Positions 35,188-56,004 of a stretch of DNA of 64,000 bases are shown here, one piece after another (positions within the stretch are counted from its first letter, which is position 1; each line of letters starts with the position of its first letter). The DNA is taken from the NCBI GenBank assembly GCA_046760805.1, contig JBHIEV010000001.1, forward strand, positions 130 through 64,129. The letters run 5' to 3'. The notes beneath the pieces were generated by a model. The model worked only from the letters and a program-made list of their open reading frames with translations. It did not search any database and was not told the origin of the DNA. This stretch comes from Candidatus Bathyarchaeia archaeon (GTDB taxonomy: Archaea; Thermoproteota; Bathyarchaeia; Bathyarchaeales; Bathyarchaeaceae). The position numbers were made by a program, and so were the translations under genes.

Positions 35188-35221
35188 GAGTGTACTTATC
35201 CGCTCCCGATCATGGAGGGAT

Positions 35222-36110: not shown

Positions 36111-36308
36111 GGAGGAGTGTGAGATGAATGATTCACAGTTTTCCCACGTTTTTGCCTCTCATCCGCAGTATAAGGAAAGAAAGGCCTAGATTAGGCTGAC
36201 AAGCCTAGCGTGTTATTTGACAAATTCGCGTACATTTTAGGAATTTAGGGACAAGGCAGCGCTCGTGCTTAAAAGAACTTATATAATTTCTTGTTCAGTC
36301 TTTAGGTT

Positions 36309-37001: not shown

Positions 37002-37327
37002 TGTTCTTCATTTGCACTGGCCTGAGCAGGTTTGCTGTGGCCAACCGGGCGCACGGTGCCGTGGCTTTAGGAGCCGTTTTATTTTGTGTTATGGGATGGT
37101 TTGGAAGCCTGTGTCTTTGAAGTGTTCGTGGAAGGTGAAGACTTGGGTGACGCTGTGTTTTTCCATGGCTTTGGACGCTTAGGTAGGGTTTTTGTCATCA
37201 GCGTTGTAGTAGGTTATGAGGGTGGGCGTGTTTAGACAGGTATTTGATTTTTTCCGTTAATAAACGATCAGAATTGGCTAGCTGAAGACGATGCAGAAAT
37301 GAGGTTTAGTGTGGAAGGTGATATGAG

Positions 37328-42284: not shown

Positions 42285-42521
42285 ATTCCCCAATATTCTT
42301 TGAGATAGAAGAAAACGGGATATACCTTACGTTGCTACAGAGATGATGCTTCAATTTCAATCAACATCGATGAGGGAATATGACTGAAGGGCTTTCGGGC
42401 ATGGCTACTCGTAGGATTTCTCCTAATCTCACCGTTCCTTGCTATTCTTGTTTCTGCTAGTCATGCTTTCTCTGTTACTGGGCGGGGAGTTCTATTAGAA
42501 AGTGCGGGGATACGTGTTGTT

Positions 42522-44611: not shown

Positions 44612-45469
44612 TTGCCAGATTTAGTGACTGTTTCGATAATAGGCTCAGGAGTAGTTGGCGCCGCTACTGGAAAGGGTTTTGCCAAGCTTGGTTATAATGT
44701 CCTTTTCTATGACATAGATAGGGTGAAGTTGAAGAAGCTTAGTTCTGAAGGATATGAAGTATGTCGAAATGTATTGGATGCTGTCACACCTGCGTCCTTG
44801 TCTTTTGTTTGTGTCCAGACGCCTAGTATTAGCGGTGAGGTTGATCTTTCTTTTGTGGAAAGGGCGATCATTTCAATAGGTAAGGCTTTGAGAAAGAAGC
44901 AGAACTACCATGTGGTTGTTATTCGCAGTACGCTTTTGCCTGGAACTACGAGAACCATATTGCTGCCAACTTTACAAAGGTTCGCTAACTCTAAGTGTTT
45001 TGGGCTTTGCTACAATCCAGAGTTCCTTAGGCAAGCAAGTTCGCTGGAGGACTTTCTGAACCCTAGTAGGATAGTAATTGGTGAATTGGACAAGAAGTCT
45101 GGCGATAGATTAGCGGAGCTTTACGGCCCCTTGGATGCACCGACGATAAGAACAGATTTTGATACTGCAGAAATGATAAAGCATGCCTCTAATGCTTTTC
45201 TTGCCACGAAGATTTCCTTTTTCAATGAAATACACAATGTTTGTCAACAATTGGGAGTTAATGACAAGACCGTGAGCAAGGCTGTCTCTCTTGACCCGCG
45301 TATTGGTGAATATGGAGTTGTGGGCGGTCGGCCATTTTTGGGCAGTTGCTTGCCCAAGGATGTAGTTACGTTTGCCGATTTTGTTGAGAGATTGGGTGTA
45401 AATCCTGATATTCTCAGAGTTGTACTTGAAATAAACTCTAACATGCTTAAGCAATCGAAAAAACGCTGA
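44612..45469 (+). CDS. UDP-glucose/GDP-mannose dehydrogenase family protein lacking the C-terminal domain
   Basis: 285 aa. Rossmann IIGSGVVGAATG, CYNPEFLRQ, catalytic-Cys region GGRPFLGSCLPKD. The ORF ends right after the central domain. Confidence 0.7.
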   Translation: MPDLVTVSIIGSGVVGAATGKGFAKLGYNVLFYDIDRVKLKKLSSEGYEVCRNVLDAVTPASLSFVCVQTPSISGEVDLSFVERAIISIGKALRKKQNYHVVVIRSTLLPGTTRTILLPTLQRFANSKCFGLCYNPEFLRQASSLEDFLNPSRIVIGELDKKSGDRLAELYGPLDAPTIRTDFDTAEMIKHASNAFLATKISFFNEIHNVCQQLGVNDKTVSKAVSLDPRIGEYGVVGGRPFLGSCLPKDVVTFADFVERLGVNPDILRVVLEINSNMLKQSKKR

Positions 45470-45503
45470 AAAGTGAGCGCCACGGCTGTAGGAAGTACGC
45501 CTA

Positions 45504-46463
45504 ATGATGGATACAATGGAAGATAAGACAGTTTTAATCACGGGCGGTGCAGGCTTTATTGGTTCCTGGTTGTCTGAAGCCTTGGTGAAAAAAGGGGCTT
45601 TTGTAAGGGTTCTAGACAACTTCCAAAGTGGATCCGAGAAAAACTTGGCTCACATTATGGGCTCAGTAGAGCTTATGAAAGGAGATGTTAGAGATTATGA
45701 AACGGTTAGGACGGCGGTCAAAGGAGCAGATTTCATTTTCCATTTGGCTGCAAATGCAAGCGTGCCGAACTCCACGAAAGACCCAGAATATGATTTCAAT
45801 TCAAACGCTATTGGAACTTTCAACGTTCTGAAAGCTGCGTCAGATTCAAACAAAAGGCCCATTGTATTATATGCCTCGTCAGCTGCAGTCTATGGCGAAG
45901 CTGCGTATGTGCCCATTGACGAATCACATTCCCTGAGGCCTGCATCTTTCTACGGAGCAAGCAAGTTATGTGGCGAAGCATATTGTCGGGCCTTCCGCAA
46001 CATACTGAGGACGAAAGTTGTAGTCCTCAGGATTTTCAACACGTATGGACCCAGGCAACCTAGGTATGTAATGTATGATCTACTAAAGAAACTGTCAAGA
46101 GACCAGAAAAACCTTGAAGTCTTAGGAACAGGCAAGCAGAAAAGGGATTTTATCTATGTAACAGATTGCGTTAACGCTATAACTTCTGCAGCTCTCAACA
46201 CGAAGGCCTTGGGTGAGGTACTAAACATAGGCACTGGCAGAGGTGTGAGCATCGAACAACTGGTTCAACTTGTTCTCGACAAGCTAAACCTTGATGGGAA
46301 AACCGAGGTCCACTACACAAAACAGTCTTGGAAAGGTGATGTACAAACCCTTGTAGCGGATGTTTCCAAATTGAGAACTTTGTTGAACTATGAGCCGCAG
46401 GTGTCACTAGAAAACGGCTTTTCTTCGCTACTTGAGTGGTTCAGGACGGCTCAGGCGTCATAG
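45504..46463 (+). CDS. NAD-dependent nucleotide-sugar epimerase/dehydratase (SDR)
   Basis: 319 aa. VLITGGAGFIGSWL, SSAAVYG, YGASK catalytic motif. Confidence 0.85.
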   Translation: MMDTMEDKTVLITGGAGFIGSWLSEALVKKGAFVRVLDNFQSGSEKNLAHIMGSVELMKGDVRDYETVRTAVKGADFIFHLAANASVPNSTKDPEYDFNSNAIGTFNVLKAASDSNKRPIVLYASSAAVYGEAAYVPIDESHSLRPASFYGASKLCGEAYCRAFRNILRTKVVVLRIFNTYGPRQPRYVMYDLLKKLSRDQKNLEVLGTGKQKRDFIYVTDCVNAITSAALNTKALGEVLNIGTGRGVSIEQLVQLVLDKLNLDGKTEVHYTKQSWKGDVQTLVADVSKLRTLLNYEPQVSLENGFSSLLEWFRTAQAS

Positions 46464-46475: not shown

Positions 46476-47600
46476 TTGGAGTTATTGGCACAACTCATTC
46501 TTCTCATCAATCTCATTCTCCTCGCAGGATATGCGGTTGTATTTTTCTTAATGATGCGATATGGTTGCAGAGAAACCTTAATCAACAGAGATGAAGATTA
46601 CACCCCAAGAGTCTCTATAGTGATACCCACTTTCAACGAAGAGGACATAATAGAAAAGAGAATCAGAAACATTCTAGCGATGGACTACCCAAGAGACAAG
46701 ATAGAGATAGTTTTCATTGATAATTCTTCAGACAGAACACCTGGCATCATCAAAGGTTACCAAAAGGTGTATCCCTTCATAAAACTGCTAAGACAGGAAA
46801 AACCAGGCTTTAACAATGCTTTAAATCAAGGGTATTCGATAGCCAAAGGAGACATAGTTATTAAATCTGATTGTGATGCTTTCCCGGAACCCTCTGCCTT
46901 GCGAGCAGCTGTCTCGAATTTCGCGGACAAGAAAGTTGGCGCTGTAGGTGGGGTTCACAAAATCCTGTCAAAGTCCGAAAAATCCCTTGAGAGGAAGTTC
47001 AGAGGAATTCAGTACAGAGTGCAGCAGATGGAAAGTTACTTTCACTCATCGCTCTTTTGCCACGGTTCCTTTGGAGCGTATCGCAAAAGCCTTATACCAA
47101 AATTGGGAGAGAGCATCACAGCTGATGATTGTGAACTTGTAATAAACGTTGTAAAGAATGGCTACCGCGCCATTTTTGATTCTGACGTGAAATCTCTCGA
47201 ATGGTATCCCGAAAACTTCTGGGATAGACGTAAGCAAAGGGACAGAAGAGCAGCTGGGGTCATGAGAGTGATTCTAAGTAACTTGGCGATGTTTTTCAAT
47301 CCACGATACGGTGCCTTTGGGTTCATAAGTCTGCCCTTATATTTCTTCATACTAATACTTTCACCGATACTGCTTCTTGTTGATGTGGCTTTACTAACGT
47401 CATACTTTGCGATACACCAGCCCTTGCTTTTATTGATCATTCCCGCGATAATCCTTGTTCTTGCTTGGCGATCAGTTACAGCAAGGGCCGCAATGGATAC
47501 ATATATTGGCTGTTTCCTAGGGATGTTCAAGATTTTTACTAGAAACAAGGTATGGGGAAAGGGTTTGCAGAAGAAGAGTAGAAAGGAACTCTCCCAATAG
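46476..47600 (+). CDS. membrane-embedded GT2 glycosyltransferase (processive-synthase-like topology)
   Basis: 374 aa. N-terminal TM, VSIVIPTFNEE, DNSSDRT, KSDCDA. C-terminal cluster of TM helices. Confidence 0.8.
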   Translation: MELLAQLILLINLILLAGYAVVFFLMMRYGCRETLINRDEDYTPRVSIVIPTFNEEDIIEKRIRNILAMDYPRDKIEIVFIDNSSDRTPGIIKGYQKVYPFIKLLRQEKPGFNNALNQGYSIAKGDIVIKSDCDAFPEPSALRAAVSNFADKKVGAVGGVHKILSKSEKSLERKFRGIQYRVQQMESYFHSSLFCHGSFGAYRKSLIPKLGESITADDCELVINVVKNGYRAIFDSDVKSLEWYPENFWDRRKQRDRRAAGVMRVILSNLAMFFNPRYGAFGFISLPLYFFILILSPILLLVDVALLTSYFAIHQPLLLLIIPAIILVLAWRSVTARAAMDTYIGCFLGMFKIFTRNKVWGKGLQKKSRKELSQ

Positions 47601-47655: not shown

Positions 47656-48831
47656 TTGTCCATCGCTGATGTTGTAGTCGTTGGGGCGGGTCCTGCTGGT
47701 TCCAGTGTTGCAAAAGTGATTGGAAGCGCCGGTTTTGATGTAGAGTTAATAGAACAAAGAAAGCCTTGCCAAACAAAAGTATGTGGTGGTGTTATTTCCG
47801 CAAAGCTTGCAAGAGAATTATTGTTTGAGAAGAATATTATCGAAAAATTCGTATCTCACGAAGTTTTGCATTTCCCGTGGGGGAAGAAAATTCGGCGATT
47901 TCATCATGCAACAGTAAAACGACAAACTTTTGATACACTTCTTGCTGACAATGCTGCAAGATGTGGAGCAAATATAAACCATGAAACCAAGGCAACTGAT
48001 GCTGCAAGAAAAGGGGACGTTGTGCAGGTTTCTCTAAAAAGTCGGAAAGATAAGAAGACCCGGTCTATATCCTGTAAAATGATCGTTTTTGCTGATGGGC
48101 CTTTCACTCTTGGCACAAAATTGTTCCCTACCCTTGGATTCAAAGGAACCCCAAACAACCTAGCAATAGCAGCGAGATACGAGCTGGAATGGGAAGAAAA
48201 CAACATGAACCATCTGGAGCTTTTCTTCGGCCACGATATTTCGCCATGGGGCTTTGGATGGATTTTCCCTAGGAAAGACTCATTAAATGTGGGAGTTGGC
48301 TGTCGCCTGTCCACGCTAAGACGATTCGGAATCAGGATCACAGAAACCTTGGATAATTTCATCAAAGATAAGGCAGTTTCTTCTGAAACGCTCATAGATA
48401 AGAAGGTTCTACACTTTGGAGCTGCAATGCTTCCGCTGGCCCCAGCTGAAAGAATATATGGTCCTTCCAGTCTGGTCGTTGGTGATGCTGCCGGAATGGT
48501 TGATCCTTTAGGTGGATATGGCATAGACAATGCAGTCTTTGCGGGACGACTGGCTGGCCACATAGCCGTTGAAGCTCTGCAGAAAGGAGATTTTTCTGAG
48601 AATTTTTTGTCCAGATACCAGACTCTCTGGAAACAATCCTCCGCTTATTCGATAATTAAGAGGAACTATCGAATAGCGAGAGCTTTGTATCCTTTTTTGA
48701 GAATCGACAAGAACCTTATAGCGAAAATCGAATACCTTCTTCACTATGGCCTAGAATCAGTTCGACATGTTGATGTCATTCTGTATCCAATGTTCAGCAA
48801 GAGGGGAATGTCCAGCTTCAGTACGGATTGA
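47656..48831 (+). CDS. geranylgeranyl-reductase-family FAD-dependent oxidoreductase
   Basis: 391 aa. VVVVGAGPAGSSVA, KVCGGVIS, VVGDAAGMVDPLGGYGIDNA. Confidence 0.8.
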   Translation: MSIADVVVVGAGPAGSSVAKVIGSAGFDVELIEQRKPCQTKVCGGVISAKLARELLFEKNIIEKFVSHEVLHFPWGKKIRRFHHATVKRQTFDTLLADNAARCGANINHETKATDAARKGDVVQVSLKSRKDKKTRSISCKMIVFADGPFTLGTKLFPTLGFKGTPNNLAIAARYELEWEENNMNHLELFFGHDISPWGFGWIFPRKDSLNVGVGCRLSTLRRFGIRITETLDNFIKDKAVSSETLIDKKVLHFGAAMLPLAPAERIYGPSSLVVGDAAGMVDPLGGYGIDNAVFAGRLAGHIAVEALQKGDFSENFLSRYQTLWKQSSAYSIIKRNYRIARALYPFLRIDKNLIAKIEYLLHYGLESVRHVDVILYPMFSKRGMSSFSTD

Positions 48832-48836
48832 TTAAA

Positions 48837-50069
48837 ATGAAATATGATATCGGTATTGTAGGCGCTGGGATGGCTGGTCTTTCAACGGCTCTATATATAT
48901 GTTCCAGAACGGATGCAACCGTACTGATGGTGGACAAAAAGAAGATTGGTGACCCTACAAAGTCTTCACCTTTCACCTTTCCTGATATTGTCGAGAATTA
49001 TAATCTGCAGGGTGCTGTGATTCAAGGCTACACGAAATTCACTTTCAGAAGCCCGCAAGGCGTGTCATCCTCTTTTGAATTTGATAAACCCGCCTTTGTG
49101 ACATTTGACTATGAAAAGGCATGCGACATTTTACTTCGTCGGATAAAAAAAGAGGGTAACGTTGAGATATATGAAAGTATTAGTGTGCTGAGTTTCGAAC
49201 TTGGTAAACCTTCCAACAATAAGGGAAATCGGATTCTGATGCTTGAGGATGGTACAAAGTCTTCTGTTGATGTCTTAGTTGATTCATCTGGAAGTGCTTT
49301 CTTAGGGGCAGAAACGCTTGGTCAACAGTTACCTCCTTTATATAGCCACGCTTATGGCGAAGTTTTGAGAGGCTGTAGTGTCGAAGATCCTAGTGAAATG
49401 CATATACTTTCAGGTCGAAAATATGGAAACGGCGGCGGTTGGTTCTACCCGATGGATACGCAAACAGCTCGATATGGCTTCGCAACTGTAACGAGATCAA
49501 GGCATTATCCTAAGAAGATCGTTAAAGCTAATTTCGGCCGTGCTTGTAAAGATTTCTCCCCTTACAGTGAGATGGTACAAGACGCAGAGACATTAAGACC
49601 GGAATTCGGAACTATCCCCATAGGCCCGCTCAAAAATTTCGTTTTCGATCGTCTATTGATCGTTGGAGACGCCGCCGGCCAAGCAACACCTTGGTATTGC
49701 GAAGGTATAAGACCTGCTCTTGAAGGCGGCAAGATTTGTGGGAAAGTCATAGCGAGGGCATATGAGCAAAGAGATTACAGTCGAAAAGTTTTGGGCGAGT
49801 ACCAGAGAGAATGGGATGCCTTAAACAGATACAGGTATTCGATGGCGATGAGAAGAAGCACTTTTCAGTGGTTCAGGAGGCAGGAATTCTGGGACAGTGG
49901 TGTCAAAAAAACAGCCTTGTTTGAGCCCAGCGAGTTAATTTCCACGATTAGGTATGGCGAGAGAAGTGGCATTGCTCGCCCCGCCTTTTTTCCTTTGTTG
50001 ATCCGAGATTTCTCCTACAACATTAGGTGTCTAATATTGCAGGCGATTTTTGGGACCACAAGTGCATAG
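48837..50069 (+). CDS. geranylgeranyl-reductase-like FAD-dependent oxidoreductase, divergent paralog
   Basis: MKYDIGIVGAGMAGLSTA, LIVGDAAGQATPWYCEGIRPA. The track ORF opens at TTG 48828, but ATG 48837 is preferred. Confidence 0.7.
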   Translation: MKYDIGIVGAGMAGLSTALYICSRTDATVLMVDKKKIGDPTKSSPFTFPDIVENYNLQGAVIQGYTKFTFRSPQGVSSSFEFDKPAFVTFDYEKACDILLRRIKKEGNVEIYESISVLSFELGKPSNNKGNRILMLEDGTKSSVDVLVDSSGSAFLGAETLGQQLPPLYSHAYGEVLRGCSVEDPSEMHILSGRKYGNGGGWFYPMDTQTARYGFATVTRSRHYPKKIVKANFGRACKDFSPYSEMVQDAETLRPEFGTIPIGPLKNFVFDRLLIVGDAAGQATPWYCEGIRPALEGGKICGKVIARAYEQRDYSRKVLGEYQREWDALNRYRYSMAMRRSTFQWFRRQEFWDSGVKKTALFEPSELISTIRYGERSGIARPAFFPLLIRDFSYNIRCLILQAIFGTTSA

Positions 50070-50158
50070 AAAGGATCGTGACAGATACGTGTTTAAAGGT
50101 CTGTGATGACAAGGCACCTAGTTTTTGTGCATTGAACAAACTATAGACGATTCTAGGA

Positions 50159-51043
50159 GTGAGTCATATGCACTCTGCACTCCAATATCTTTCAAGTATG
50201 CTACAATTCTTCGATGTGGGCGCGCAACAGAAGTGGATAGGCGCAGCAATTCTCGGGTTTGCCTTGGCTCTGCCCCAAGAAAATACGTCAATTCTTAAGG
50301 CCTTACTGTTTCTGTTTGGACTGGTTCCAGTTCTGAGCTACATAATGTCAATAAACGACTGTTTTGATGTTGAAATAGACAAGTTGAAGGAAGAATACAC
50401 AGGCAAACAGAGGATCGTGGGTGTCATCATTTCAAGAGATGTGGCGTTAGGACTTTCTGGTTTTGTTCTTGTGATTGGATTAATGTTTTCATGGTATGTC
50501 TCCATCTCTTTTTTCCAAATAGCGTTGCTAATGGCGTTTATCGGAACAATCTACTCTGTACCACCTTTAAGGCTTAAAATGAAATATCCCTATTCTACGT
50601 CATTACTATTCATAGGTGATTTCTTACCTTTCTTGGCTGGAATCTCTGTACTCAGCTTCATAGACTGGTCAGTTGTCGTTATGTCCTCATCTTTCAGTTT
50701 CATCGCGTTAGTTCACAGGTTCCAACATGAAATTGACTATTTTGAAGTTGACCTTGAAACGGGAAAGAAGACCATCGCTGTTGTAAACGGTGTTAGGGTT
50801 ACTCGGATGCTACGTAATATCTGCATATTTGTCGGGATAATCGAGTTTCTGGTTTTCATCCTTCTAGGTTGGTTCTCTCCCTCCTTTTTGTTTCTGTTCC
50901 TTGCTTATCTTGTCCTTTGTGTTGAATATTCAATCTGGCTAGATCATCTGCCCTTGCGTCTCCAGAATGTCATAAGCCCAGTTCTAATGTTTTCTGGTTT
51001 TCTTTTCTTTTTCCTCGTGGCAGTTGTTCGCCTGATTGCTTGA
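50159..51043 (+). CDS. UbiA-superfamily prenyltransferase (second, divergent)
   Basis: 294 aa and polytopic. NDCFDVEIDK (NDxxDxxxD) and YSVPPLRLK motifs. Confidence 0.75.
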   Translation: MSHMHSALQYLSSMLQFFDVGAQQKWIGAAILGFALALPQENTSILKALLFLFGLVPVLSYIMSINDCFDVEIDKLKEEYTGKQRIVGVIISRDVALGLSGFVLVIGLMFSWYVSISFFQIALLMAFIGTIYSVPPLRLKMKYPYSTSLLFIGDFLPFLAGISVLSFIDWSVVVMSSSFSFIALVHRFQHEIDYFEVDLETGKKTIAVVNGVRVTRMLRNICIFVGIIEFLVFILLGWFSPSFLFLFLAYLVLCVEYSIWLDHLPLRLQNVISPVLMFSGFLFFFLVAVVRLIA

Positions 51044-51057
51044 TAAGCTAAACAGGA

Positions 51058-51924
51058 ATGGCTGAGAAGATGCTAAATGGATTTCTACACGAGCAAGAAA
51101 GCCTTGTACACAAAACCTTACTCATGCATAACATTAGGGTAAATGGCTATCCTGCATTGGTGTACTGTCATGGTCTTAGTTCGTCGAGATATATAGAGTA
51201 TGAAATGGCGTTAAGGTATTTGCATTTGAAAAAAAATGAGGAAGTTCTTGACTTAGGATGTGGACACTCACTTCTTCCGTCGCTGTTAAGACGAAGGGGT
51301 GTTCAAGTTCTTGCCCTGGATGTAACTAGAGACTCTGTTGTCTGGCAGGCAAGAATAGGCGACAAAAGTGAGAAACAATTGAAATCAGCGATTTTGTCAA
51401 GCATAGGAAAACTCCCTTTCAAAGATAATTCGATCTCGAAGATAACCGTAATTTCCGTTTTGGAACACATATTAGATGATATGGAGGCCGCAAAAGAGAT
51501 CGGCAGAGTTTTGGGCCCCAAAGGCGTCTGCGTGGTCAGCGTTCCAGTGGTTTCGGGAGACACAACTCTGCTAGATGCTGGATGGACAGTATGTTTGCCT
51601 CGTTATCTGAAACATCTCCCCGTTTCGACCCTAGAGACTTTCTTCAAGAGATTCGAAGTTGACAGGGGAGACAACTTTTTGTTTCGACAGTACTGTATTG
51701 ATGATGTTTTCAAAAGAATAGTTGAACCAGCGGGCTGTGTCCTAGAAGATTGGGTTGTTTATGAAAGCGCGTTGGCCAATGTTTTTTACCACACAATTAT
51801 TCCGATTGGAGTGTTAAGTCTATTGGAATATGTTTTGGCAGGAAAATACATGAATAAGGGAAAGATGCCGAGGGATTGCGGCGGAATAATTTTGAAATTG
51901 AGAAAGAGAGACTCCACCTTTTAG
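51058..51924 (+). CDS. class I SAM-dependent methyltransferase
   Basis: 288 aa. VLDLGCGHS motif I and an acidic residue after beta-2 (LALDV). Confidence 0.7.
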   Translation: MAEKMLNGFLHEQESLVHKTLLMHNIRVNGYPALVYCHGLSSSRYIEYEMALRYLHLKKNEEVLDLGCGHSLLPSLLRRRGVQVLALDVTRDSVVWQARIGDKSEKQLKSAILSSIGKLPFKDNSISKITVISVLEHILDDMEAAKEIGRVLGPKGVCVVSVPVVSGDTTLLDAGWTVCLPRYLKHLPVSTLETFFKRFEVDRGDNFLFRQYCIDDVFKRIVEPAGCVLEDWVVYESALANVFYHTIIPIGVLSLLEYVLAGKYMNKGKMPRDCGGIILKLRKRDSTF

Positions 51925-51992: not shown

Positions 51993-52955
51993 GTGCTTAA
52001 GTATGGAGAGAAACTATTGCAGCCTTTAGTTACCATTGTTGTTTGCACCAAAAATAGACCCCAAATCCTTCGTCAGTGTTTATCCTCCATATACCTGACC
52101 AGATATTCCCGGAAAGAGTGTCTTCTTGTTGACAGCAGTCACGGTAACTTCGCTAAGCAAGTGGCTAAAATGGCCAAATCCTACGCTTTTCGATACATGT
52201 ATCAAGCAGAAAGAGGAGTTAGTGCAGCAAAGAATCTTGCGATCACGAGAGCGAATGGCGATATTTTATGCTTTACCGACGACGACTGTGTTGTTGGTGA
52301 AAATTGGGTTGAAAACCTTATCAGAAACTACAATAGTCCCGAAGTGAAGTGTGTAACTGGACGCACAATCCCTGAAGCAAGAGACACAGTGATCGAGAAG
52401 TTTTTCACCCATGACAAGGGATTGAAAAGGTGCGAATTCATGTCAGGCCAAGAGGAGAGCCTGTTCCGCATGCTTCGGCGTGTGGTTCCATACCTGATGT
52501 CTACTGTATCCTTGCAGGGTATTGCTCCAGTACCATGGTGCATAGGTGTTGGAAACAACTGTTCATTTCGGAAAGACGTATTCGAATCAATCGAACTTTT
52601 TGATGAAGGCCTAGGGGCCGGGAGCCCAAAAAAGGGAGGCGAAGATCTTGATGTTTTCTATAGAATCTATCAGGCTGGATTCAAACTAATCTATGAGCCT
52701 AACGCTGTTGTCTATCATGTGAATCAGCGCGATTCCGGAAGTATTCTGATGAACTATGGAAAGGGAGGGGGACATTTCATGTTAAAACATTTTCATGATC
52801 CGTATATAGCACTTCAATTTCTCGGTAGGTTTGTGAATGTTGGCCAGATCTTATTTAGAACACTGTTGGGCAGAGATAAGAAAGGCTGTCATTTTCAATT
52901 AAAATATCTGAACGGTCTATTTTCTAGCATAATGGATTCCAGTTTCCATCTATGA
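51993..52955 (+). CDS. GT2 glycosyltransferase
   Basis: 320 aa. VTIVVCTKNRP, CFTDDDCVV (DxD region). Confidence 0.8.
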   Translation: MLKYGEKLLQPLVTIVVCTKNRPQILRQCLSSIYLTRYSRKECLLVDSSHGNFAKQVAKMAKSYAFRYMYQAERGVSAAKNLAITRANGDILCFTDDDCVVGENWVENLIRNYNSPEVKCVTGRTIPEARDTVIEKFFTHDKGLKRCEFMSGQEESLFRMLRRVVPYLMSTVSLQGIAPVPWCIGVGNNCSFRKDVFESIELFDEGLGAGSPKKGGEDLDVFYRIYQAGFKLIYEPNAVVYHVNQRDSGSILMNYGKGGGHFMLKHFHDPYIALQFLGRFVNVGQILFRTLLGRDKKGCHFQLKYLNGLFSSIMDSSFHL

Positions 52956-52970
52956 AAGGCGTAGGCCCCA

Positions 52971-54257
52971 ATGAAAGAAAATGGGTTGAAAATCGTCTTT
53001 CTCATGCCCAGGTTTTCGGTTCCCTTCCCAGGCGCCTGTTGGAAGAGAATTGGATACATTGCCTCATATTTTTCAAAGGCGAAACAACGTGTCAGAATAG
53101 TTGCTAGTGCAGAGCTAGGTTGGCATCGAAAAAAGTTTAGTATTCACGGAGTTAACGTCCTGAATCTATTGCCACCTACAAATCAAAAATTTCGACCTAT
53201 AAGATACATTATGGCATTCTTAAGTTGTATATACACCACAACGTTACTGACTTTTTTCGGAGGTGATGTTGTCATACTTTCGCTTCCGCAAGGCGGGTCA
53301 GAAAGTATAATATACATTTTCGGAACTTTTGCTGCATGTAGAATTTTGGGAAAAAGAATAGTATTCGACTACAGAGACGAATGGGAGAATTATCTCCTTA
53401 ACATGGCCAAGTCTGGCATAACACGGTTTCTTTGTAAAGTTTTGAAGGATATTGCGATGATGCTTTACATCAAAAGTGACTTAACGGTAGCGGTAACGCC
53501 TTCGTATTGCGAATATCTTAGAAGAAATGGGGTGCGGAGAGTCTGCTTCATACCGAACGGAGCCGATGTAGTGTTATTTCGCCCTCTCAACAAGGAAGAG
53601 ACAAGAGCTAGAATGAAGTTGCCACCCAGATGGTTTATTGTTCTATATTCAGCGGGTATGCACGTCGCCCCGTATTATAGTCCTGAAGTCCTGCTTAAGG
53701 CATTCAAAGAGTTTGTCATGACAGGAAAGAGGAGCAATGTCAGATTAGTCTTGTTTGGAGGTTCAGAAAAGATCCAACAATTGTTGAGACTTGCGGATAT
53801 GATGGGGCTGTCAAATAAAGTCGTTTATCTTGGCGTGAAGAAGAGCGATCAAGAAATCATTGAAGTCATAGCAAGTTCAGATGTCGCTGTTATACCCTAT
53901 GGCGATAAACCGTTATACAAGGGCGCCTATCCATTAAGATTTTTTGAATATCTGGCTTGCGGAATTCCTGTAATAGCTTCAGGATTTGCGGATTCATTGT
54001 TGGCAAAAATCATAAACAGCTATCAGGTGGGCTTGGTTGTCCCTCCAACGGACGAAGGCAGACTTACCGAAGCCCTAGAAAAAATGTATCTTGACAAAGA
54101 ATTTAGGGAAGAGGCTGGTCGCCGTGGCAGAGTCCTTGTTGAGAAGCAGTTCGACAAGAACAAACTTGCGGCAGATTATTTGAAGCTATTGAATCCATCA
54201 GCAAAAACAATATCCAGCCATAGTATCGATATGGTTTCCGTTGTAAGCGATAATTGA
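52971..54257 (+). CDS. GT4 (GT-B fold) glycosyltransferase
   Basis: 428 aa. C-terminal EYLACGIPVIAS-type motif typical of GT1/GT4. Confidence 0.8.
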   Translation: MKENGLKIVFLMPRFSVPFPGACWKRIGYIASYFSKAKQRVRIVASAELGWHRKKFSIHGVNVLNLLPPTNQKFRPIRYIMAFLSCIYTTTLLTFFGGDVVILSLPQGGSESIIYIFGTFAACRILGKRIVFDYRDEWENYLLNMAKSGITRFLCKVLKDIAMMLYIKSDLTVAVTPSYCEYLRRNGVRRVCFIPNGADVVLFRPLNKEETRARMKLPPRWFIVLYSAGMHVAPYYSPEVLLKAFKEFVMTGKRSNVRLVLFGGSEKIQQLLRLADMMGLSNKVVYLGVKKSDQEIIEVIASSDVAVIPYGDKPLYKGAYPLRFFEYLACGIPVIASGFADSLLAKIINSYQVGLVVPPTDEGRLTEALEKMYLDKEFREEAGRRGRVLVEKQFDKNKLAADYLKLLNPSAKTISSHSIDMVSVVSDN

Positions 54258-54303: not shown

Positions 54304-56004
54304 TTGAACGATGTAACACGTATAATGCAAAGGGTTCGCTTTAAGCTTTTTTGGGTAATAGCATTAGCGGCGATTTCGCTTGCACTAACCACTCTATTAT
54401 TCACTCATGTCACTCACTTTGAAGTCGATGATTGGGGATTGCTGTCAAAACTTCCAGTAATATTCTGGGTGGGCTTATTGTCCTTAGGCTTGCTTCTTTA
54501 CCCTGCACAAAAACATAAGAATCGCATGATCTGTCTTTCGGTATTATTCATCTTGTTTTTGTTCTGGGTTCCCCAACTTATCAAAGATTACGGCGCGGAG
54601 TTTCATCATGCGTACTATTTTTCTTCGGAGGCCAAGCTACTTACATCCAAGGGACATTTGGTGACAAATCCTAATGATCCGCTAATAAGATATCAGAATT
54701 GGCCTTTTTTCTTGTATCTTGAGGCCATCATGATTGAGGTGATGGGTATGCCTCCGTTGATCCTAACCGATCTTTTCCAACTCATTAATATAGGTCTCTT
54801 TGCGTTGCTTGCGTTTTTGATTTTTAGACTCAAGCTTGGAACAACTAATTCACTTTTTGCTGTTATATGGTTCCTAACCGGTTTCTGGATGGGGCAAAAC
54901 TATTTCTCTCCTCAGAGCATGTCATATGTGCTATATCTCATGGTCTTTTTCCTGATAGTCAAACAGCTTTATTACACGACCCAAATAAAGGGCAGAACTA
55001 TAAGACTTCTCGTTTTCTTTTTGTTTAGCACCACCGTTTTTTCTCATCAACTTACGCCAATTGTGATTATCTCGGCATTGGTTGCTATATCCTTGTTTAA
55101 AACTCTATCGCGTAGATTCAGCACGCAGGTATCTTCAACTGTAACCCTAGCAACATGTGCCCTTTTTATTACGATTCAAGCAACATATATGATCTATATT
55201 GCGTATCCAGTTCTAGACGTCATTGGTCAAATTCTTCGTGAACGTATTTTCTTATCCGAGATATCTCCTGCGTTAACATGGGCATCCCGTACGTTTACGT
55301 TTGGTTCAACCTATGAAATAATCAGCGCGCTTAGCAGCAGAGCTATCGTGACAATTAATCTCATCTTCTTTGCTTTTGGCGTAAGTGCGCGTTTTTTTGG
55401 CAGAAAAGCGAGGAAAACTAGATCCAACAATCTTTTTTGGATTGCATGGATTGGAGGAGTCGGATTTTTTGGTTTATTTGCGAGTTATGGAATTGAACCG
55501 CATATACGTGCTTATATGTTCGCTTTGGTGCCTCTTAGCTACATTAACATCAGTTTCTTGATCAAGAAGCCCAAAATTCTATGCACAGTTTTGTTAATAC
55601 TATTGTTTTTTCACTTCCCAGCGCACTATTCCAAAGACTCTTGGTATGCAGTGACATCAACTGAAATGGCCGGCACAAAATTTTTTGCCGAGAAGACTCC
55701 CCAAAGCGCTCTTTATTACTACACGCAAGAGTCTCCAACCTTGTGGTATCAAGACCCAACCAGAGTGGCAACCATTGGTTACATAATGTACGACCCTCAA
55801 AAGTTTTACGCAGGATCTTTCAACGCCTCACTCTTCAGAGAAGAGACACAGGATGCTGACTATTTCTTACTATCGAGTTCTCAGAAGAACTTCTTTTTCT
55901 ACTATTTTGGATCATATCCTTTTGAGAAACTTCATCTTGATGTATACAACAACCGTCTGTATAACAACGAACGTTTCCTGATATATGGAAAAATAAAGGA
56001 TTAG
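54304..56004 (+). CDS. polytopic membrane protein, GT-C-like candidate (lipid-linked-sugar glycosyltransferase or polymerase)
   Basis: 566 aa with more than 10 hydrophobic helices. Acidic motif HFEVDDWG immediately after TM1. Soluble C-terminal domain of about 130 aa. No WWDYG motif seen. Confidence 0.4.
   Translation: MNDVTRIMQRVRFKLFWVIALAAISLALTTLLFTHVTHFEVDDWGLLSKLPVIFWVGLLSLGLLLYPAQKHKNRMICLSVLFILFLFWVPQLIKDYGAEFHHAYYFSSEAKLLTSKGHLVTNPNDPLIRYQNWPFFLYLEAIMIEVMGMPPLILTDLFQLINIGLFALLAFLIFRLKLGTTNSLFAVIWFLTGFWMGQNYFSPQSMSYVLYLMVFFLIVKQLYYTTQIKGRTIRLLVFFLFSTTVFSHQLTPIVIISALVAISLFKTLSRRFSTQVSSTVTLATCALFITIQATYMIYIAYPVLDVIGQILRERIFLSEISPALTWASRTFTFGSTYEIISALSSRAIVTINLIFFAFGVSARFFGRKARKTRSNNLFWIAWIGGVGFFGLFASYGIEPHIRAYMFALVPLSYINISFLIKKPKILCTVLLILLFFHFPAHYSKDSWYAVTSTEMAGTKFFAEKTPQSALYYYTQESPTLWYQDPTRVATIGYIMYDPQKFYAGSFNASLFREETQDADYFLLSSSQKNFFFYYFGSYPFEKLHLDVYNNRLYNNERFLIYGKIKD

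What the first reader, a model, noticed from the sequence alone, without database searches (positions are those of the whole stretch)
47656..51924. Embedded isoprenoid module: two GGR-family reductases, a UbiA prenyltransferase and a methyltransferase
The sequence shows the following.
- Two tandem flavin reductases sit 5 nt apart if ATG 48837 is used. One is GGR-canonical (KVCGGVIS, GDAAGMVDP). The other is divergent.
- They are followed by a UbiA enzyme (NDCFDVEIDK) and a class-I methyltransferase.

Established knowledge gives three comparisons. GGR paralogs saturate archaeal membrane lipids and dolichol. UbiA-family members include DGGGP synthase, MenA/UbiA quinone prenyltransferases and decaprenyl-phosphate phosphoribosyltransferase. 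UbiE/MenG-type methyltransferases finish quinones.

Three hypotheses follow:
1. A dolichol-like carrier is saturated and charged for the flanking GTs.
2. A UbiA enzyme acts as a polyprenyl-phosphate (phospho)sugar transferase.
3. A partly saturated prenylquinone pathway has been captured in a glycan island.

None can be decided by eye.
Basis: partly seen in the sequence, partly recalled or inferred. Interest (0 to 1): 0.62.

Follow-up and report, generated by a model that had tools for sequence, protein, structure and literature searches.

The report
Accessory isoprenoid-lipid module in surface-glycan island
Four adjacent genes in a Bathyarchaeia genome belong to a conserved, uncharacterised gene cluster that seems to make a special isoprenoid lipid for cell-surface sugars and glycoproteins; they are not the housekeeping membrane-lipid genes and not a quinone pathway.

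Summary
Four + strand genes encode a canonical geranylgeranyl-reductase (GGR1, 47656-48831), a divergent GGR-like flavoprotein (GGR2, 48837-50069), a UbiA-family enzyme (50159-51043) and a class-I methyltransferase (51058-51924). They lie in a Bathyarchaeia glycan island.

The four genes are not the conserved unit. In 13 of 15 related loci the UbiA clade co-occurs with GGR2 and with a secreted, sequon-rich ~440-aa protein (window 42390-43715). A short-chain prenyl-diphosphate synthase (38803-39846) is often present too. GGR1 occurs in only 5 loci, and the methyltransferase is not conserved.

- **UbiA:** a small, separate clade (18 representatives among 1.84 billion). It is nearest to AfUbiA, chlorophyll synthase and DGGGP synthase, and farthest from the phosphoribosyltransferase Rv3806c. 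It passes no curated subfamily cut-off.
- **GGR2:** lacks the catalytic Cys47 of GGRs in 0 of 46 sequences.
- **Bacterial relatives:** all three GGR2 relatives examined also sit beside or within 8 kb of a UbiA gene, in glycan clusters.

Best reading (confidence 0.5): a dedicated prenyl-transfer and prenyl-modification module makes the lipid anchor or carrier for the island's glycoconjugate. The acceptor and product are unknown. Housekeeping and quinone readings are rejected, and the phosphoribosyl-transferase reading is disfavoured.

The parts
47656..48831 (+). GGR1: canonical geranylgeranyl-reductase-family flavoprotein (accessory; found in about one third of related clusters)
   Evidence: TIGR02032 194 bits (cut-off 158.8) and PF22578 GGR_cat. 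The Cys of the CGG motif, PWGFGWIFP, RQTFD and GDAAG are all present. Best solved relative is TaGGR 3oz2, 90 bits. Only about 9 relatives reach >=48% identity, and several share contigs with GGR2 relatives.
48837..50069 (+). GGR2: divergent GGR-like FAD protein that lacks the catalytic cysteine (conserved core partner of UbiA)
   Evidence: TIGR02032 82 bits, below cut-off; PF05834 29.5 bits. GxGxxG, GGGWFYP and VGDAAGQA are invariant. The Cys47 column is never Cys in 46 sequences. It lies within 10 kb of UbiA in 13 of 15 archaeal loci and within 8 kb of a UbiA gene in 3 of 3 bacterial loci (directly adjacent in two).
50159..51043 (+). UbiA-superfamily intramembrane transferase of a small, unassigned Bathyarchaeia clade (NCBI start at ATG 50168)
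   Evidence: PF01040 88 bits. Invariant N66 D67 xx D70 xxx D74, Y132..R138.K140, and H190 E191 x6 D198. There are 18 representatives at E<1e-30, then a gap. The AF2 model has pLDDT 93.6, and its best fold match is AfUbiA.
51058..51924 (+). Class-I SAM methyltransferase (variable accessory gene, probably glycan tailoring)
   Evidence: Methyltransf_11 E 1e-13. No curated family passes; the best hits are DVU1556/MftM/UbiG-like at 34-41 bits. No orthologue passed the synteny thresholds in any related locus.
38803..39846 (+). Island-encoded trans short-chain prenyl-diphosphate synthase (IdsA/GGPPS-like), the probable prenyl donor supplier
   Evidence: PF00348 E 7e-59; IdsA_Meth 259 bits. It is 60-70% identical to synthases in 6 related clusters, and in most of them lies directly upstream of the secreted protein. 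It is only 27% identical to the second synthase in the mevalonate operon. The FARM has Tyr at position -5.
42390..43715 (+). Conserved secreted, N-glycosylation-sequon-rich ~440-aa protein ('sec440'), the best-conserved partner of GGR2/UbiA; its 5' end carries a 1-nt frame problem
   Evidence: 45-69% identical in 13 of 15 loci. Homologues have signal peptides. It has 30 sequons per 1000 aa against 0-13 in its neighbours, and 6 sequon columns are conserved. No Pfam or PDB match. The in-frame signal peptide runs from 42390, while ATG 42380 is out of frame.
43859..44557 (+). Small GT2, AglJ / dolichyl-phosphate-hexose-synthase-like
   Evidence: TIGR04182 AglJ 171 bits and NF041391 92 bits, both below cut-off. 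Homologues occur in 5 related loci.
44612..46463 (+). Nucleotide-sugar dehydrogenase (short AglM-like form) and NAD-dependent epimerase/dehydratase
   Evidence: TIGR03026 238 bits, above cut-off; PF16363/PF01370.
46476..47600 (+). Membrane-bound GT2 (GT2/GT21-type with C-terminal TM helices), directly upstream of GGR1
   Evidence: PF00535, PF13506. TM segments are predicted. Homologues lie directly upstream of UbiA in L087, L088 and the bacterial locus L092.
51993..54257 (+). GT2 (MftF/AglG-like) and GT4
54304..56004 (+). 566-aa polytopic membrane protein (10 or more hydrophobic segments) of unknown family; GT-C-like role is only a guess
   Evidence: No Pfam or NCBIfam hit. Hydrophobicity scan.
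56064..57455 (+). B12-binding radical SAM enzyme
   Evidence: PF02310 plus PF04055. The nearest models are ApyD, BchE, HpnJ and lipid B12-rSAM, all below cut-off. Homologues occur in L001, L087, L089 and the bacterial loci L092 and L173.
35700..38432 (+). Left border genes conserved with the cluster: HTH_45 regulator, a 171-aa membrane protein and a DUF1616 protein
   Evidence: PF14947, PF07760. They are syntenic in L090 at 41%, 42% and 57% identity.

Best explanation
The four genes are part of an accessory cell-surface biogenesis island of about 28 kb, on one strand from about 35.7 kb to the contig end. The island is conserved in a subgroup of Bathyarchaeia.

Proposed mechanism, with its basis:
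1. The island's own short-chain trans-prenyl-diphosphate synthase supplies a C20-type prenyl diphosphate. The gene's presence and conservation are shown; the chain length is inferred from the FARM residues.
2. The UbiA-clade enzyme transfers that prenyl group to a polar acceptor, most likely onto an oxygen as its nearest relatives do (AfUbiA-like enzymes, chlorophyll synthase, DGGGP synthase). This is inferred, and the acceptor is unknown.
3. GGR1 is a complete GGR and saturates double bonds of the chain (inferred from intact motifs).
4. GGR2 keeps FAD binding and the isoprenoid-clamping Trp but lacks the catalytic Cys. It performs a second, conserved flavin-dependent step on the same lipid. 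The chemistry is unknown.
5. The product is the membrane lipid on which, or to which, the flanking Agl-like glycosyltransferases, methyltransferase and B12-radical-SAM enzyme build or attach a glycan. That glycan belongs with the co-encoded secreted glycoprotein. This step is inferred from gene context only.
For: - **Conserved context.** GGR2 and the secreted sequon-rich protein lie within 10 kb of the UbiA clade in 13 of 15 independent loci. The synthase is present in 7. L096 has a compact run of synthase, sec440, GGR2 and UbiA, with GGR2 and UbiA overlapping by 14 nt.
- **Bacterial counterparts.** Bacterial GGR2 relatives (31-35% identical) in Anaerolineae, Actinomycetota and a third bacterium lie next to or within 8 kb of a UbiA gene. 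These sit in clusters with GT2/GT21, B12-rSAM and a Wzx flippase. One also has a prenyl-diphosphate synthase and a DXS-NUDIX fusion, which suggests dedicated precursor supply.
- **UbiA placement.** By profile the nearest solved sequences are AfUbiA (60 bits), chlorophyll synthase (59.5) and DGGGP synthase (44). By fold the order is AfUbiA TM 0.68-0.72, then DGGGPS 0.61, then Rv3806c 0.58. The 119 nearest outgroup representatives are PRK12884-type, ChlG/BchG, DGGGPS and HPT. None is a quinone prenyltransferase.
- **UbiA active site.** Both acidic motifs are retained, with ND changed to HE in the second one. This fits two-metal binding of a prenyl diphosphate (PMC10994848, PMC9385802).
- **GGR motifs.** GGR1 has every GGR motif. 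GGR2 keeps the Trp that positions the isoprenoid methyl group (PMC9385802).
- **Flanking GTs.** They are AglJ-, AglG- and AglM-like.
- **Duplicate genes.** A second synthase sits in the mevalonate operon at 13210-14280, and a second UbiA at 3937-4887.
- **Established precedent.** UbiA plus GGR pairs recur: ChlG/ChlP, DGGGPS/GGR, MenA/MenJ.
Against: - No product, acceptor or activity is known. Everything rests on homology and gene context.
- The bacterial UbiA partners are not the closest relatives of the archaeal clade (42-51 bits on its profile, below 150 other outgroups). The cross-domain parallel therefore rests on GGR2, not on UbiA orthology.
- GGR2 lacks the residue that is essential in SaGGR, so it may not be a reductase at all.
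- The island synthase could also be the cell's general GGPP synthase. The mevalonate-operon paralogue has Gly at FARM position -5.
- The rest of the genome could not be searched, so a separate DGGGP synthase and lipid GGR are inferred, not shown.
- The methyltransferase and GGR1 are not conserved with the core.
Confidence: 0.5

Rival explanations
1. Polyprenyl-phosphate phospho-sugar transferase system. The UbiA enzyme would act like Rv3806c/PPPRS and load a phosphopentose from PRPP onto a polyprenyl phosphate. The lipid-linked sugar would then be flipped and used outside the cell by a GT-C-type enzyme. The GGR-like proteins would tailor the carrier or the sugar.
For: - The UbiA gene sits in a glycan island with an unassigned 566-aa polytopic membrane protein.
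- In bacterial locus L173 the UbiA gene is followed by a MOP/Wzx flippase, and a PMT_2 (GT-C) gene is nearby.
- No classical phosphoglycosyl transferase was seen in the bacterial clusters.
- Three-component pentofuranose systems are widespread (PMC11127046).
Against: - No NCBIfam DPPRS model hits at E<=0.01.
- Rv3806c gives no hit at E<=10 with the clade profile, while AfUbiA, ChlG and DGGGPS all hit.
- Rv3806c is the most distant UbiA-fold structure (TM 0.58, 12% identity).
- The second acidic motif is retained, which Rv3806c does not need (PMC10994848).
- The position matching Tyr70 of Rv3806c is Gln or Met.
- No HAD or PAP2 phosphatase was annotated in the island.
- A trans-prenyl-diphosphate synthase is part of the conserved operon, which fits a prenyl-diphosphate donor.
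Confidence: 0.12
2. Dolichol or polyprenol carrier tailoring. GGR1 and GGR2 would saturate the dolichol phosphate used by the Agl-like GTs for N-glycosylation of the co-encoded glycoprotein. The UbiA enzyme would do something unrelated or auxiliary.
For: - AglJ-, AglG- and AglM-like genes flank the module, and the co-encoded protein is sequon-rich.
- GGR paralogues have been linked to polyprenol saturation, and most remain uncharacterised (PMC10821996).
Against: - Neither the window nor the related loci hold a cis-prenyltransferase.
- The clustered synthase is a trans short-chain type.
- The tight, conserved GGR2-UbiA pairing, with overlapping genes and bacterial counterparts, has no explanation under this reading.
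Confidence: 0.15
3. UbiA-type terpene synthase or terpenoid glycoside pathway. The UbiA enzyme would ionise the prenyl diphosphate and cyclise or hydrate it without a separate acceptor. GGR2 (lycopene-cyclase-like) would modify the terpene and the GTs would glycosylate it.
For: - GGR2 passes the Pfam Lycopene_cycl gathering score (29.5 bits against 23.4).
- A squalene-hopene-cyclase-like protein lies next to UbiA in L004.
- A GT1 (CrtX-type family) and DXS are present in the bacterial clusters.
Against: - There are no phytoene synthase or desaturase genes.
- GGR2 scores far higher on the GGR superfamily model (82 bits).
- The clade's nearest relatives are transferases.
- The association with secreted glycoproteins and sorting-signal proteins suggests envelope biogenesis rather than a free metabolite.
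Confidence: 0.07
4. Housekeeping archaeol genes. The UbiA enzyme would be the cell's DGGGP synthase and GGR1 its membrane-lipid reductase.
For: - DGGGP synthase is among the nearest named families, and the fold match is good.
- GGR1 has every GGR motif.
- The rest of the genome could not be inspected.
Against: - DGGGPS equivalogs score 25-26 bits against cut-offs of 296-353.
- The clade has only 18 representatives among 1.84 billion proteins, and only one among 185,579 species genomes.
- It always lies in variable glycan clusters.
- GGR1 orthologues (about 9) are far fewer than GGR2 orthologues (about 55), so most lineages with the cluster lack GGR1.
- Bacteria carry the analogous pair.
- A second UbiA gene lies in the same window.
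Confidence: 0.03
5. Partly saturated prenylquinone pathway.
For: The combination of UbiA, a GGR-like reductase and a methyltransferase formally resembles MenA/MenJ/MenG. There are weak MenA and UbiE hits.
Against: - MenA models score 17-20 bits against cut-offs of 102-264.
- UbiE/MenG models are below cut-off.
- None of the 119 nearest UbiA outgroups is a quinone prenyltransferase.
- The methyltransferase is not conserved with the core.
- The island has no ring-forming quinone genes. The UbiD homologue at 18457-19764 belongs to the mevalonate operon.
Confidence: 0.03

Closest known systems
Chlorophyll synthase ChlG/BchG with geranylgeranyl reductase ChlP/BchP
   Same: A UbiA-family O-prenyltransferase is paired with a GGR-family flavoprotein acting on the same C20 chain. 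ChlG/BchG are the best named NCBIfam hits and one of the two best solved-sequence hits.
   Different: The scores are far below cut-off (48 bits against 212). There are no tetrapyrrole genes. The host is a non-phototrophic archaeon. The second motif has HE instead of ND. The partner GGR2 lacks the catalytic Cys.
Archaeal DGGGP synthase plus lipid GGR (archaeol pathway)
   Same: Same two enzyme superfamilies and the same predicted order of reactions, prenyl ether formation followed by saturation. The fold match is TM 0.61-0.63.
   Different: It fails the DGGGPS equivalog cut-offs. The clade is rare and restricted to glycan islands. No GGGP synthase lies in the cluster. Analogous pairs occur in bacteria.
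AfUbiA (PDB 4TQ3), the Archaeoglobus fulgidus UbiA homologue
   Same: It is the closest solved structure and sequence (60 bits; TM 0.68-0.72). It shares the unusual loop without the Arg-Pro of the usual RPxxSG segment.
   Different: Identity is only 18-19%. I do not know of an assigned physiological substrate for AfUbiA (my own recollection, not checked here), so it gives no functional assignment.
Rv3806c / PPPRS three-component pentofuranose glycosylation systems (PMC10994848, PMC11127046)
   Same: A UbiA-fold enzyme sits inside a glycan locus, together with flippase-type and large polytopic membrane proteins.
   Different: It is the most distant UbiA-fold match, with no sequence-level hit. 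No phosphoribose phosphatase is present. The cluster carries a prenyl-diphosphate synthase and GGR-like proteins instead.
Haloferax-type Agl N-glycosylation pathway
   Same: The flanking genes resemble AglJ, AglG and AglM, and a sequon-rich secreted protein is co-encoded.
   Different: All scores are below the equivalog cut-offs. No AglB/STT3 lies in the window. Agl clusters are not known to contain a UbiA/GGR/prenyl-synthase module (my own knowledge).
Exosortase/archaeosortase protein-sorting systems (PEP-CTERM/XrtA loci; ArtA-dependent lipid anchoring)
   Same: In relatives the gene directly upstream of UbiA encodes a protein ending in (V/I)PEF(P/T)S, then a TM helix, then a basic tail. Two loci carry an exosortase/archaeosortase-family protein. 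The GT4s hit the XrtA-system 'stp2' model best, and Asn-synthase-like genes occur.
   Different: No such sorting-signal protein or sortase was found in this window, and the contig ends 150 nt after it. A link between sortases and a UbiA module has not been described, as far as my literature searches show.

Membership tests
UbiA superfamily (intramembrane prenyl/phosphoribosyl transferases) | Pfam PF01040 above the gathering score | tested here: met
   88 bits against 34.2.
UbiA superfamily (intramembrane prenyl/phosphoribosyl transferases) | Motif 1 N-D-x-x-D-x-x-x-D and motif 2 Y-x5-(K/R) | tested here: met
   N66, D67, D70, D74, Y132, R138 and K140 are invariant in 36 sequences.
UbiA superfamily (intramembrane prenyl/phosphoribosyl transferases) | Second Asp-rich motif (motif 3) | tested here: inconclusive
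   H190-E191-x6-D198-x2-T-G-K-K-T is invariant. It lines up with ChlG's N-D-x6-D-x3-G, but ND has become HE. The acidic character is kept, while the canonical DxxxD is not.
UbiA superfamily (intramembrane prenyl/phosphoribosyl transferases) | Nine-helix UbiA fold | tested here: met
   AF2 pLDDT 93.6, pTM 0.91. Foldseek probability 1.00 to 4tq3, 6m31, 8djk, 4od5 and 8j8j.
DGGGP synthase (housekeeping archaeol synthesis) | Passes a curated DGGGPS equivalog model | tested here: not met
   PRK12883 26 bits against 353; PRK12882 25 bits against 296.
DGGGP synthase (housekeeping archaeol synthesis) | Motif 3 with the Asp cluster D180/D183/D187 (MjDGGGPS numbering; PMC9385802) | tested here: not met
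   The clade has H-E-x6-D.
DGGGP synthase (housekeeping archaeol synthesis) | Present throughout the archaeal lineage as a single essential gene | tested here: not met
   Only 18 representatives at E<1e-30 among 1.84 billion, and one locus among 185,579 species genomes. Whether this genome has another DGGGPS could not be checked.
Decaprenyl/polyprenyl-phosphate phosphoribosyltransferase (Rv3806c, PPPRS) | Sequence relationship to Rv3806c or the DPPRS models | tested here: not met
   No DPPRS model hits at E<=0.01. There is no 8j8j hit at E<=10 with the clade profile. By contrast, the window's other UbiA (3937-4887) does hit both.
Decaprenyl/polyprenyl-phosphate phosphoribosyltransferase (Rv3806c, PPPRS) | PRPP-contact residue Tyr70 (three residues before the motif-1 Asn) | tested here: not met
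   The clade has Gln or Met at that position. This rests on motif-anchored alignment only and is weak.
Decaprenyl/polyprenyl-phosphate phosphoribosyltransferase (Rv3806c, PPPRS) | Companion phosphoribose phosphatase (HAD or PAP2), flippase and GT-C | tested here: inconclusive
   No HAD or PAP2 was found among the island genes scanned. A 566-aa polytopic protein of unknown family is present. The bacterial analogues have Wzx and PMT_2.
Decaprenyl/polyprenyl-phosphate phosphoribosyltransferase (Rv3806c, PPPRS) | Uses PRPP and polyprenyl phosphate as substrates | not testable with these tools
   This needs an enzyme assay.
MenA/UbiA/COQ2 quinone prenyltransferases | Passes a curated model, or is nearest to this family | tested here: not met
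   MenA models score 17-20 bits against 102-264. None of the 119 nearest outgroups matches these families at E<=1e-20.
Geranylgeranyl reductase family (GGR1) | TIGR02032 above cut-off and the GGR catalytic domain | tested here: met
   194 bits against 158.8; PF22578 43 bits against 27.
Geranylgeranyl reductase family (GGR1) | Cys47, PxxYxWxFP and RxxFD motifs (PMC10821996) | tested here: met
   KVCGG, PWGFGWIFP and RQTFD are present.
Core membrane-lipid DGGGPL reductase (GGR1) | Passes an equivalog model and is present in all related lineages | tested here: not met
   111 bits against cut-offs of 580-780. There are about 9 relatives at >=48% identity, against about 55 for GGR2 at >=50%. GGR1 is present in 5 of 15 clusters.
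Geranylgeranyl reductase family (GGR2) | TIGR02032 above cut-off, or the GGR_cat domain | tested here: not met
   82 bits against 158.8, and no PF22578 hit.
Geranylgeranyl reductase family (GGR2) | Catalytic Cys47 | tested here: not met
   0 of 46 GGR2-type sequences have Cys in that column, against 24 of 24 GGR1-type sequences. It is replaced by a P-x-T-F motif.
Geranylgeranyl reductase family (GGR2) | FAD-binding GxGxxG, GDAAG, and the Trp of the WxFP clamp | tested here: met
   G9/G11/G14, G277-D278-A-A-G281 and W202 (GGGWFYP) are invariant.
Flavin-dependent halogenases (GGR2) | Invariant catalytic Lys and the WxWxIP motif | tested here: not met
   PltA is the best PDB profile hit (77 bits), but the family has no invariant Lys and has GGGWFYP instead of WxWxIP.
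Lycopene cyclase family PF05834 (GGR2) | Pfam gathering score and a carotenoid gene context | tested here: inconclusive
   29.5 bits against 23.4, over nearly the full length. The GGR superfamily model scores higher, and no CrtB or CrtI is nearby.
UbiE/MenG quinone methyltransferases | PF01209 or TIGR01934 above cut-off | tested here: not met
   19.2 bits against 20.1; 29 bits against 158.
Exosortase/archaeosortase sorting system | Sortase-family protein and C-terminal sorting-signal substrates in the locus | tested here: not met
   None was found in the window. Relatives do have them: PEF-type tails directly upstream of UbiA in L001, L003, L086, L095, L097 and L099, and just after GGR2 in L090. 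TIGR04178 scores 66 bits in L001, with a 40% homologue in L100.

The most novel reading that the evidence does not exclude
The synthase, UbiA and GGR2 core makes a previously undescribed class of isoprenoid lipid. This would not be dolichol, archaeol or a quinone. It would serve as a dedicated carrier or as the covalent membrane anchor for surface glycoproteins. Candidate recipients are the conserved secreted sequon-rich protein and the PEF-CTERM-type archaeosortase substrates whose genes directly precede UbiA, often overlapping it, in sister clusters. Related machinery built around the Cys-less GGR2 family would be shared with anaerobic Chloroflexota and Actinomycetota.
Probability: 0.27. Interest if true: 0.85.

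Novelty: new variant of a known kind. Interest (0 to 1): 0.6.

Why it matters
Bathyarchaeia are among the most abundant uncultured archaea in sediments, and their envelope and lipid biochemistry are almost unknown. This locus gives a concrete, testable gene set for an accessory isoprenoid lipid tied to surface glycans:
- a novel UbiA clade;
- a whole family of GGR-like flavoproteins without the catalytic cysteine;
- a dedicated prenyl-diphosphate synthase;
- a conserved secreted glycoprotein.

If the product is a new lipid carrier or a protein or glycan anchor, three things would follow. It would add a new branch to UbiA-superfamily chemistry. It would assign a function to one group of the many uncharacterised archaeal GGR paralogues. 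It might also bear on what lipid archaeosortase-type systems attach to their substrates. The related bacterial clusters suggest the chemistry is not confined to Archaea.

Tried and rejected
- **Exact-sequence look-up of the UbiA protein with the GTG start** found nothing, because the public gene model starts at ATG 50168.
- **The genome-contig scan** returned only one true clade member. The other 79 loci were distant bacterial UbiA genes without a GGR2 neighbour, so they gave no context.
- **AlphaFold on the secreted 440-aa protein as a single sequence** failed (pLDDT 33.8). Homologues from fetched loci may not be submitted, so no fold search was run on it.
- **Profile searches of the secreted protein and of the 367-aa unknown** against PDB and Pfam found nothing.
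- **Halogenase reading of GGR2** (top PDB hit PltA) was rejected for lack of an invariant Lys.
- **Orthology of the bacterial and archaeal UbiA partners** was tested and not found.
- **tRNA and Rfam scans** found only a tRNA-Ser at 34088-34175.
- **Literature searches** found no paper on this cluster.
- **A moenomycin-like phosphoglycolipid analogy** was considered, based on the B12-rSAM, the Asn-synthase-like amidotransferase in L003/L086 and the UDP-sugar dehydrogenase plus epimerase. It stays an untested idea because no MoeO5-type enzyme is present.
- **Whole-genome check.** I could not test whether the rest of this genome has a separate DGGGP synthase or GGR, because all homology-search quotas were used.

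Full report
**1. What is in the sequence**

The window comes from a Candidatus Bathyarchaeia metagenome-assembled genome. Its UbiA, GGR1 and GGR2 proteins are 100% identical to NCBI proteins of that name, on a 64,150-nt contig. From about 35.7 kb to the end of the window nearly all genes lie on the + strand. The four reported ORFs are real.
- **GGR1 (47656-48831)** passes the GGR superfamily model and the GGR catalytic-domain Pfam.
- **GGR2** starts either at TTG 48828, with a 4-nt overlap, or at ATG 48837, 5 nt after the GGR1 stop. It reaches only 82 bits on the same model, whose cut-off is 158.8.
- **The UbiA protein (50159-51043)** has NDCFDVEIDK and a clear PF01040 match.
- **The last gene (51058-51924)** is a generic class-I methyltransferase. 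It does not reach the UbiE/MenG thresholds.

**2. Surroundings in the window**

Upstream of the four genes lie:
- an HTH_45 regulator, a small membrane protein and a DUF1616 protein;
- an IdsA/GGPPS-like trans-prenyl-diphosphate synthase (38803-39846);
- a 768-aa secreted protein and a secreted ~440-aa protein (42390-43715);
- an AglJ-like GT2, a short AglM-like nucleotide-sugar dehydrogenase and an epimerase;
- a membrane-bound GT2.

Downstream lie an MftF/AglG-like GT2, a GT4, a 566-aa polytopic membrane protein without any family match, a B12-binding radical SAM enzyme, another GT4 and a dockerin-bearing secreted protein.

The left half of the window is housekeeping: ribosomal proteins, enolase and GluRS. 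It also holds a complete archaeal mevalonate and isoprenoid operon. This contains a second IdsA-like synthase (13210-14280), type-2 IDI, isopentenyl-phosphate kinase, an aconitase-X-like protein, a UbiD-family decarboxylase and mevalonate kinase. A second UbiA-family gene lies at 3937-4887. The window therefore holds duplicates of two of the island's enzyme types. The two synthases are only 27% identical.

**3. The UbiA protein is a separate small clade**

A word-indexed search of 5.8 billion proteins found 38 close relatives (38-78% identity) and then a jump to E about 1e-6. An exhaustive profile search of 1.84 billion representatives found 18 at E<1e-30. Full-length members score 186-419 bits, followed by a continuum that begins at 103 bits. 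Only one of 185,579 species genomes carries a member.

Neither the window protein nor the ten nearest outgroups pass any curated NCBIfam cut-off. Among the 119 nearest outgroup representatives, the recognisable families were:
- PRK12884-type archaeal prenyltransferases (30);
- ChlG/BchG (17 and 13);
- DGGGP synthase models (11 and 8);
- homogentisate phytyltransferase (3);
- a single DPPRS-like protein.

No MenA, UbiA or COQ2 type appears. With the clade profile, the solved sequences that match are AfUbiA (60 bits), chlorophyll synthase (59.5) and MjDGGGPS (44). Rv3806c does not match even at E<=10.

A confident AlphaFold model (pLDDT 93.6) ranks the structures as follows:
- AfUbiA: TM 0.68-0.72;
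- ApUbiA, UBIAD1 and DGGGPS: about 0.61-0.64;
- Rv3806c: 0.58, at 12% identity.

Thirty-six clade members keep N66-D67-x2-D70-x3-D74, Y132/R138/K140 and H190-E191-x6-D198-x2-TGKKT. The last motif lines up with the ND-x6-D-x3-G of chlorophyll synthase, with ND replaced by HE. The acidic second site is kept. UbiA prenyltransferases need it for a second Mg2+, whereas Rv3806c does not (PMC10994848; PMC9385802). The clade thus sits in the O-prenylating sector of the superfamily but belongs to no named family.

**4. The conserved unit is not the four genes**

I fetched 15 independent clade loci with flanks and compared them with the window by BLAST. The counts within 10 kb of UbiA are:

| Gene | Loci (of 15) | Identity to window |
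|---|---|---|
| GGR2 homologue | 13 | 51-55% typical, 32-36% in the deeper branch |
| Secreted ~440-aa protein | the same 13 | 45-69% |
| Island synthase | 7 | 60-70% |
| True GGR1-type gene | 5 | - |
| Methyltransferase | 0 | none passed the thresholds |

L096 has a compact run of synthase, secreted protein, GGR2 and UbiA, with a 14-nt overlap between GGR2 and UbiA. L090 lies on a 1.9-Mb contig. It reproduces the window's island from the HTH_45 and DUF1616 border through synthase, secreted protein, GGR1, GGR2 (with the same 4-nt overlap), methyltransferase and GT4s to UbiA.

Six loci that lack GGR1 carry, right after GGR2, a 365-372-aa protein with no detectable family. This gives a roughly complementary distribution.

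**5. GGR1 and GGR2**

GGR1 has every hallmark listed for archaeal GGRs: GxGxxG, the Cys47 equivalent in KVCGG, PWGFGWIFP, RQTFD and GDAAG (PMC10821996). Its closest solved relative is TaGGR.

Only about nine database proteins are >=48% identical to GGR1. After them comes a drop to <=42% among more than 5,000 GGR-family proteins. Several of those nine share contig lengths with GGR2 relatives. About 55 GGR2 relatives exist at >=50% identity, so most lineages with the cluster lack a GGR1 orthologue. GGR1 therefore cannot be their essential membrane-lipid reductase. This last step is inference.

GGR2 defines its own family. FAD-binding motifs and the Trp of the WxFP clamp are invariant (GGGWFYP). 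The Cys47 column, however, is never Cys in 46 sequences, against 24 of 24 in GGR1-type proteins. A P-x-T-F motif takes its place. Cys47 is reported as essential in the Sulfolobus enzyme (PMC10821996). The Trp and Phe of the clamp position the isoprenoid methyl group (PMC9385802).

The GGR2 profile is about equally distant from pyrrole halogenases (77 bits) and GGRs (59-66 bits). There is no invariant lysine, so it is not a halogenase. An isoprenoid substrate is plausible, but its chemistry is open.

**6. Cross-domain parallel**

I looked up three second-tier GGR2 relatives (31-35% identical). In all three bacterial loci they lie close to a UbiA gene: directly downstream in the Anaerolineae and Actinomycetota loci, and within 8 kb in a third bacterium that carries RecA. 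The clusters also contain:
- several GT2 and GT21-like enzymes;
- a B12-radical SAM enzyme;
- a Wzx-type flippase;
- a PEP-utilising, rifampin-phosphotransferase-like kinase.

In single cases they also hold a prenyl-diphosphate synthase, a DXS-NUDIX fusion, a second GGR-like gene and a PMT_2 (GT-C) gene.

The bacterial UbiA partners are not the nearest relatives of the archaeal clade. They score 42-51 bits on its profile, ranks 155-157 of 157. What is shared is the GGR2 family and its pairing with some UbiA enzyme. None of about 150 loci with other distant UbiA genes had a GGR2 neighbour.

**7. The surface-protein connection**

The ~440-aa protein has a signal peptide in homologues. In the window the signal peptide is in frame from 42390, but the ATG at 42380 is out of frame. 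The protein carries 20-36 N-x-S/T sequons per 1000 residues, against 0-13 for most neighbours, and six sequon columns are conserved. It is therefore very likely an N-glycoprotein, although this is inference.

In six sister loci (L001, L003, L086, L095, L097, L099) the gene immediately upstream of UbiA, often overlapping it, encodes a member of one conserved family. In L090 the family member lies just after GGR2. These proteins end in (V/I)PEF(P/T)S, then a hydrophobic helix, then a basic tail. This is a PEF(G)-CTERM-like sorting signal (TIGR04296 23.5 bits, cut-off 25). Two loci also encode an exosortase/archaeosortase-family protein (TIGR04178 66 bits). None of these is present in the window, whose contig ends 150 nt beyond it.

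**8. Interpretation**

The simplest model that uses all conserved parts is a dedicated prenyl-transfer and prenyl-modification module. The island synthase would supply the prenyl diphosphate. The UbiA enzyme would attach it to a polar acceptor. GGR1 would saturate the chain. GGR2 would perform a second flavin step. The resulting lipid would serve the island's glycan and glycoprotein machinery as anchor or carrier.

The shown steps are gene identity, conservation, motif status and family placement. The inferred steps are chain length, O-prenylation, the acceptor, the order of reactions and the role of the lipid. I put this model at 0.5.

The rivals are:
- the phosphoribosyl-transferase, three-component reading (0.12);
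- dolichol tailoring with an unexplained UbiA (0.15);
- a terpene synthase or terpenoid glycoside pathway (0.07);
- housekeeping genes (0.03);
- a quinone pathway (0.03).

**9. Novelty**

UbiA plus GGR pairs are a known theme. This one combines several unusual features:
- an unassigned UbiA clade;
- a GGR-like family that lacks the catalytic cysteine;
- a dedicated synthase;
- a conserved secreted glycoprotein inside an Agl-like, exosortase-like island;
- counterparts in anaerobic bacteria.

I found no paper describing it. I rate it a new variant of a known kind, with moderate to high interest. The upside is a real but unproven possibility of a new lipid carrier or anchor class.

Noticed in passing
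window 42380-42521: The conserved secreted ~440-aa protein gene has a frame problem at its 5' end. The signal peptide is in frame from 42390. The only ATG (42380) is in the +1 frame, and an in-frame TGA sits at 42381-42383. This points to a 1-nt assembly indel, a real frameshift, or a CTG 42384 start.
   Followed up: partly
window 3937-4887 (-), with 5196-6839 (+) and 7017-8534 (+): A second UbiA-family gene (PF01040 112 bits) lies next to two radical SAM genes, one B12-like and one SPASM-type. Unlike the island UbiA, it hits DPPRS models (73 bits, below cut-off) and Rv3806c (28.6 bits). Its function is unassigned, and it could be the organism's DGGGP synthase or something else.
   Followed up: partly
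window 13210-20781 (-): This is a complete archaeal mevalonate and isoprenoid operon. It holds an IdsA-like synthase (13210-14280), type-2 IDI, isopentenyl-phosphate kinase, an aconitase-X-like protein, a UbiD-family decarboxylase and mevalonate kinase. The operon's synthase has Gly at FARM position -5, where the island synthase has Tyr. It is therefore unsettled which one makes GGPP for membrane lipids.
   Followed up: partly
L001 9891-9983, L003 9891-10004, L086 9824-9958, L095 9867-9980, L097/L099 9873-9986, L090 13801-13929: One conserved family of secreted (partly PKD-domain) proteins ends in (V/I)PEF(P/T)S, then a TM helix, then a basic tail. This is a PEF(G)-CTERM-like archaeosortase signal. 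The family is encoded immediately upstream of, and often overlapping, the UbiA gene. It is absent from the window.
   Followed up: partly
L001 11710-13824; L100 18892-20865: A 704-aa exosortase/archaeosortase-family protein (TIGR04178 66 bits) lies 1 kb downstream of UbiA in L001. A 40% identical homologue is present in L100.
   Followed up: partly
L001 2160-3263, L003 3827-4930, L086 3917-5023, L089 6334-7431, L097 6366-7484: A highly conserved 365-372-aa protein with no Pfam or PDB match follows GGR2 in the loci that lack a GGR1-type gene. This gives a roughly complementary distribution with GGR1. It has no homologue in the window.
   Followed up: partly
L092 9227-17224; L173 7428-10004; L091 12102-13859: The bacterial UbiA/GGR2 clusters carry a PPDK_N/PEP-utilizer (rifampin-phosphotransferase-like) kinase next to GGR2. 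In L092 there is also a DXS fused to a NUDIX domain. This hints at phosphorylation of the lipid and at dedicated isoprenoid precursor supply.
   Followed up: no
L004 12137-13843: A 568-aa protein with squalene-hopene-cyclase and prenyltransferase repeats lies two genes downstream of UbiA in one related locus. The PEF-type proteins give faint, non-significant squalene-cyclase N-terminal hits.
   Followed up: no
window 44612-45469: The nucleotide-sugar dehydrogenase is a short form (285 aa) without the C-terminal UDP-binding domain. Relatives have similar short forms of 299-316 aa, so it is probably not a truncation artefact.
   Followed up: no
window 34000-40000 and 34088-34175 (-): A tRNA-Ser(TGA) sits just left of the island. 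The next 6 kb show an unusually strong positive GC skew (+0.31 to +0.40), and G+C drops to 0.39-0.42 further into the island. This may mark the border of a variable region.
   Followed up: no
window 54304-56004 and 57556-58398 (-): Two polytopic membrane proteins (566 aa and 280 aa) have no match in Pfam or NCBIfam. Large unassigned polytopic proteins also recur in related clusters but are not detectably homologous to each other.
   Followed up: no
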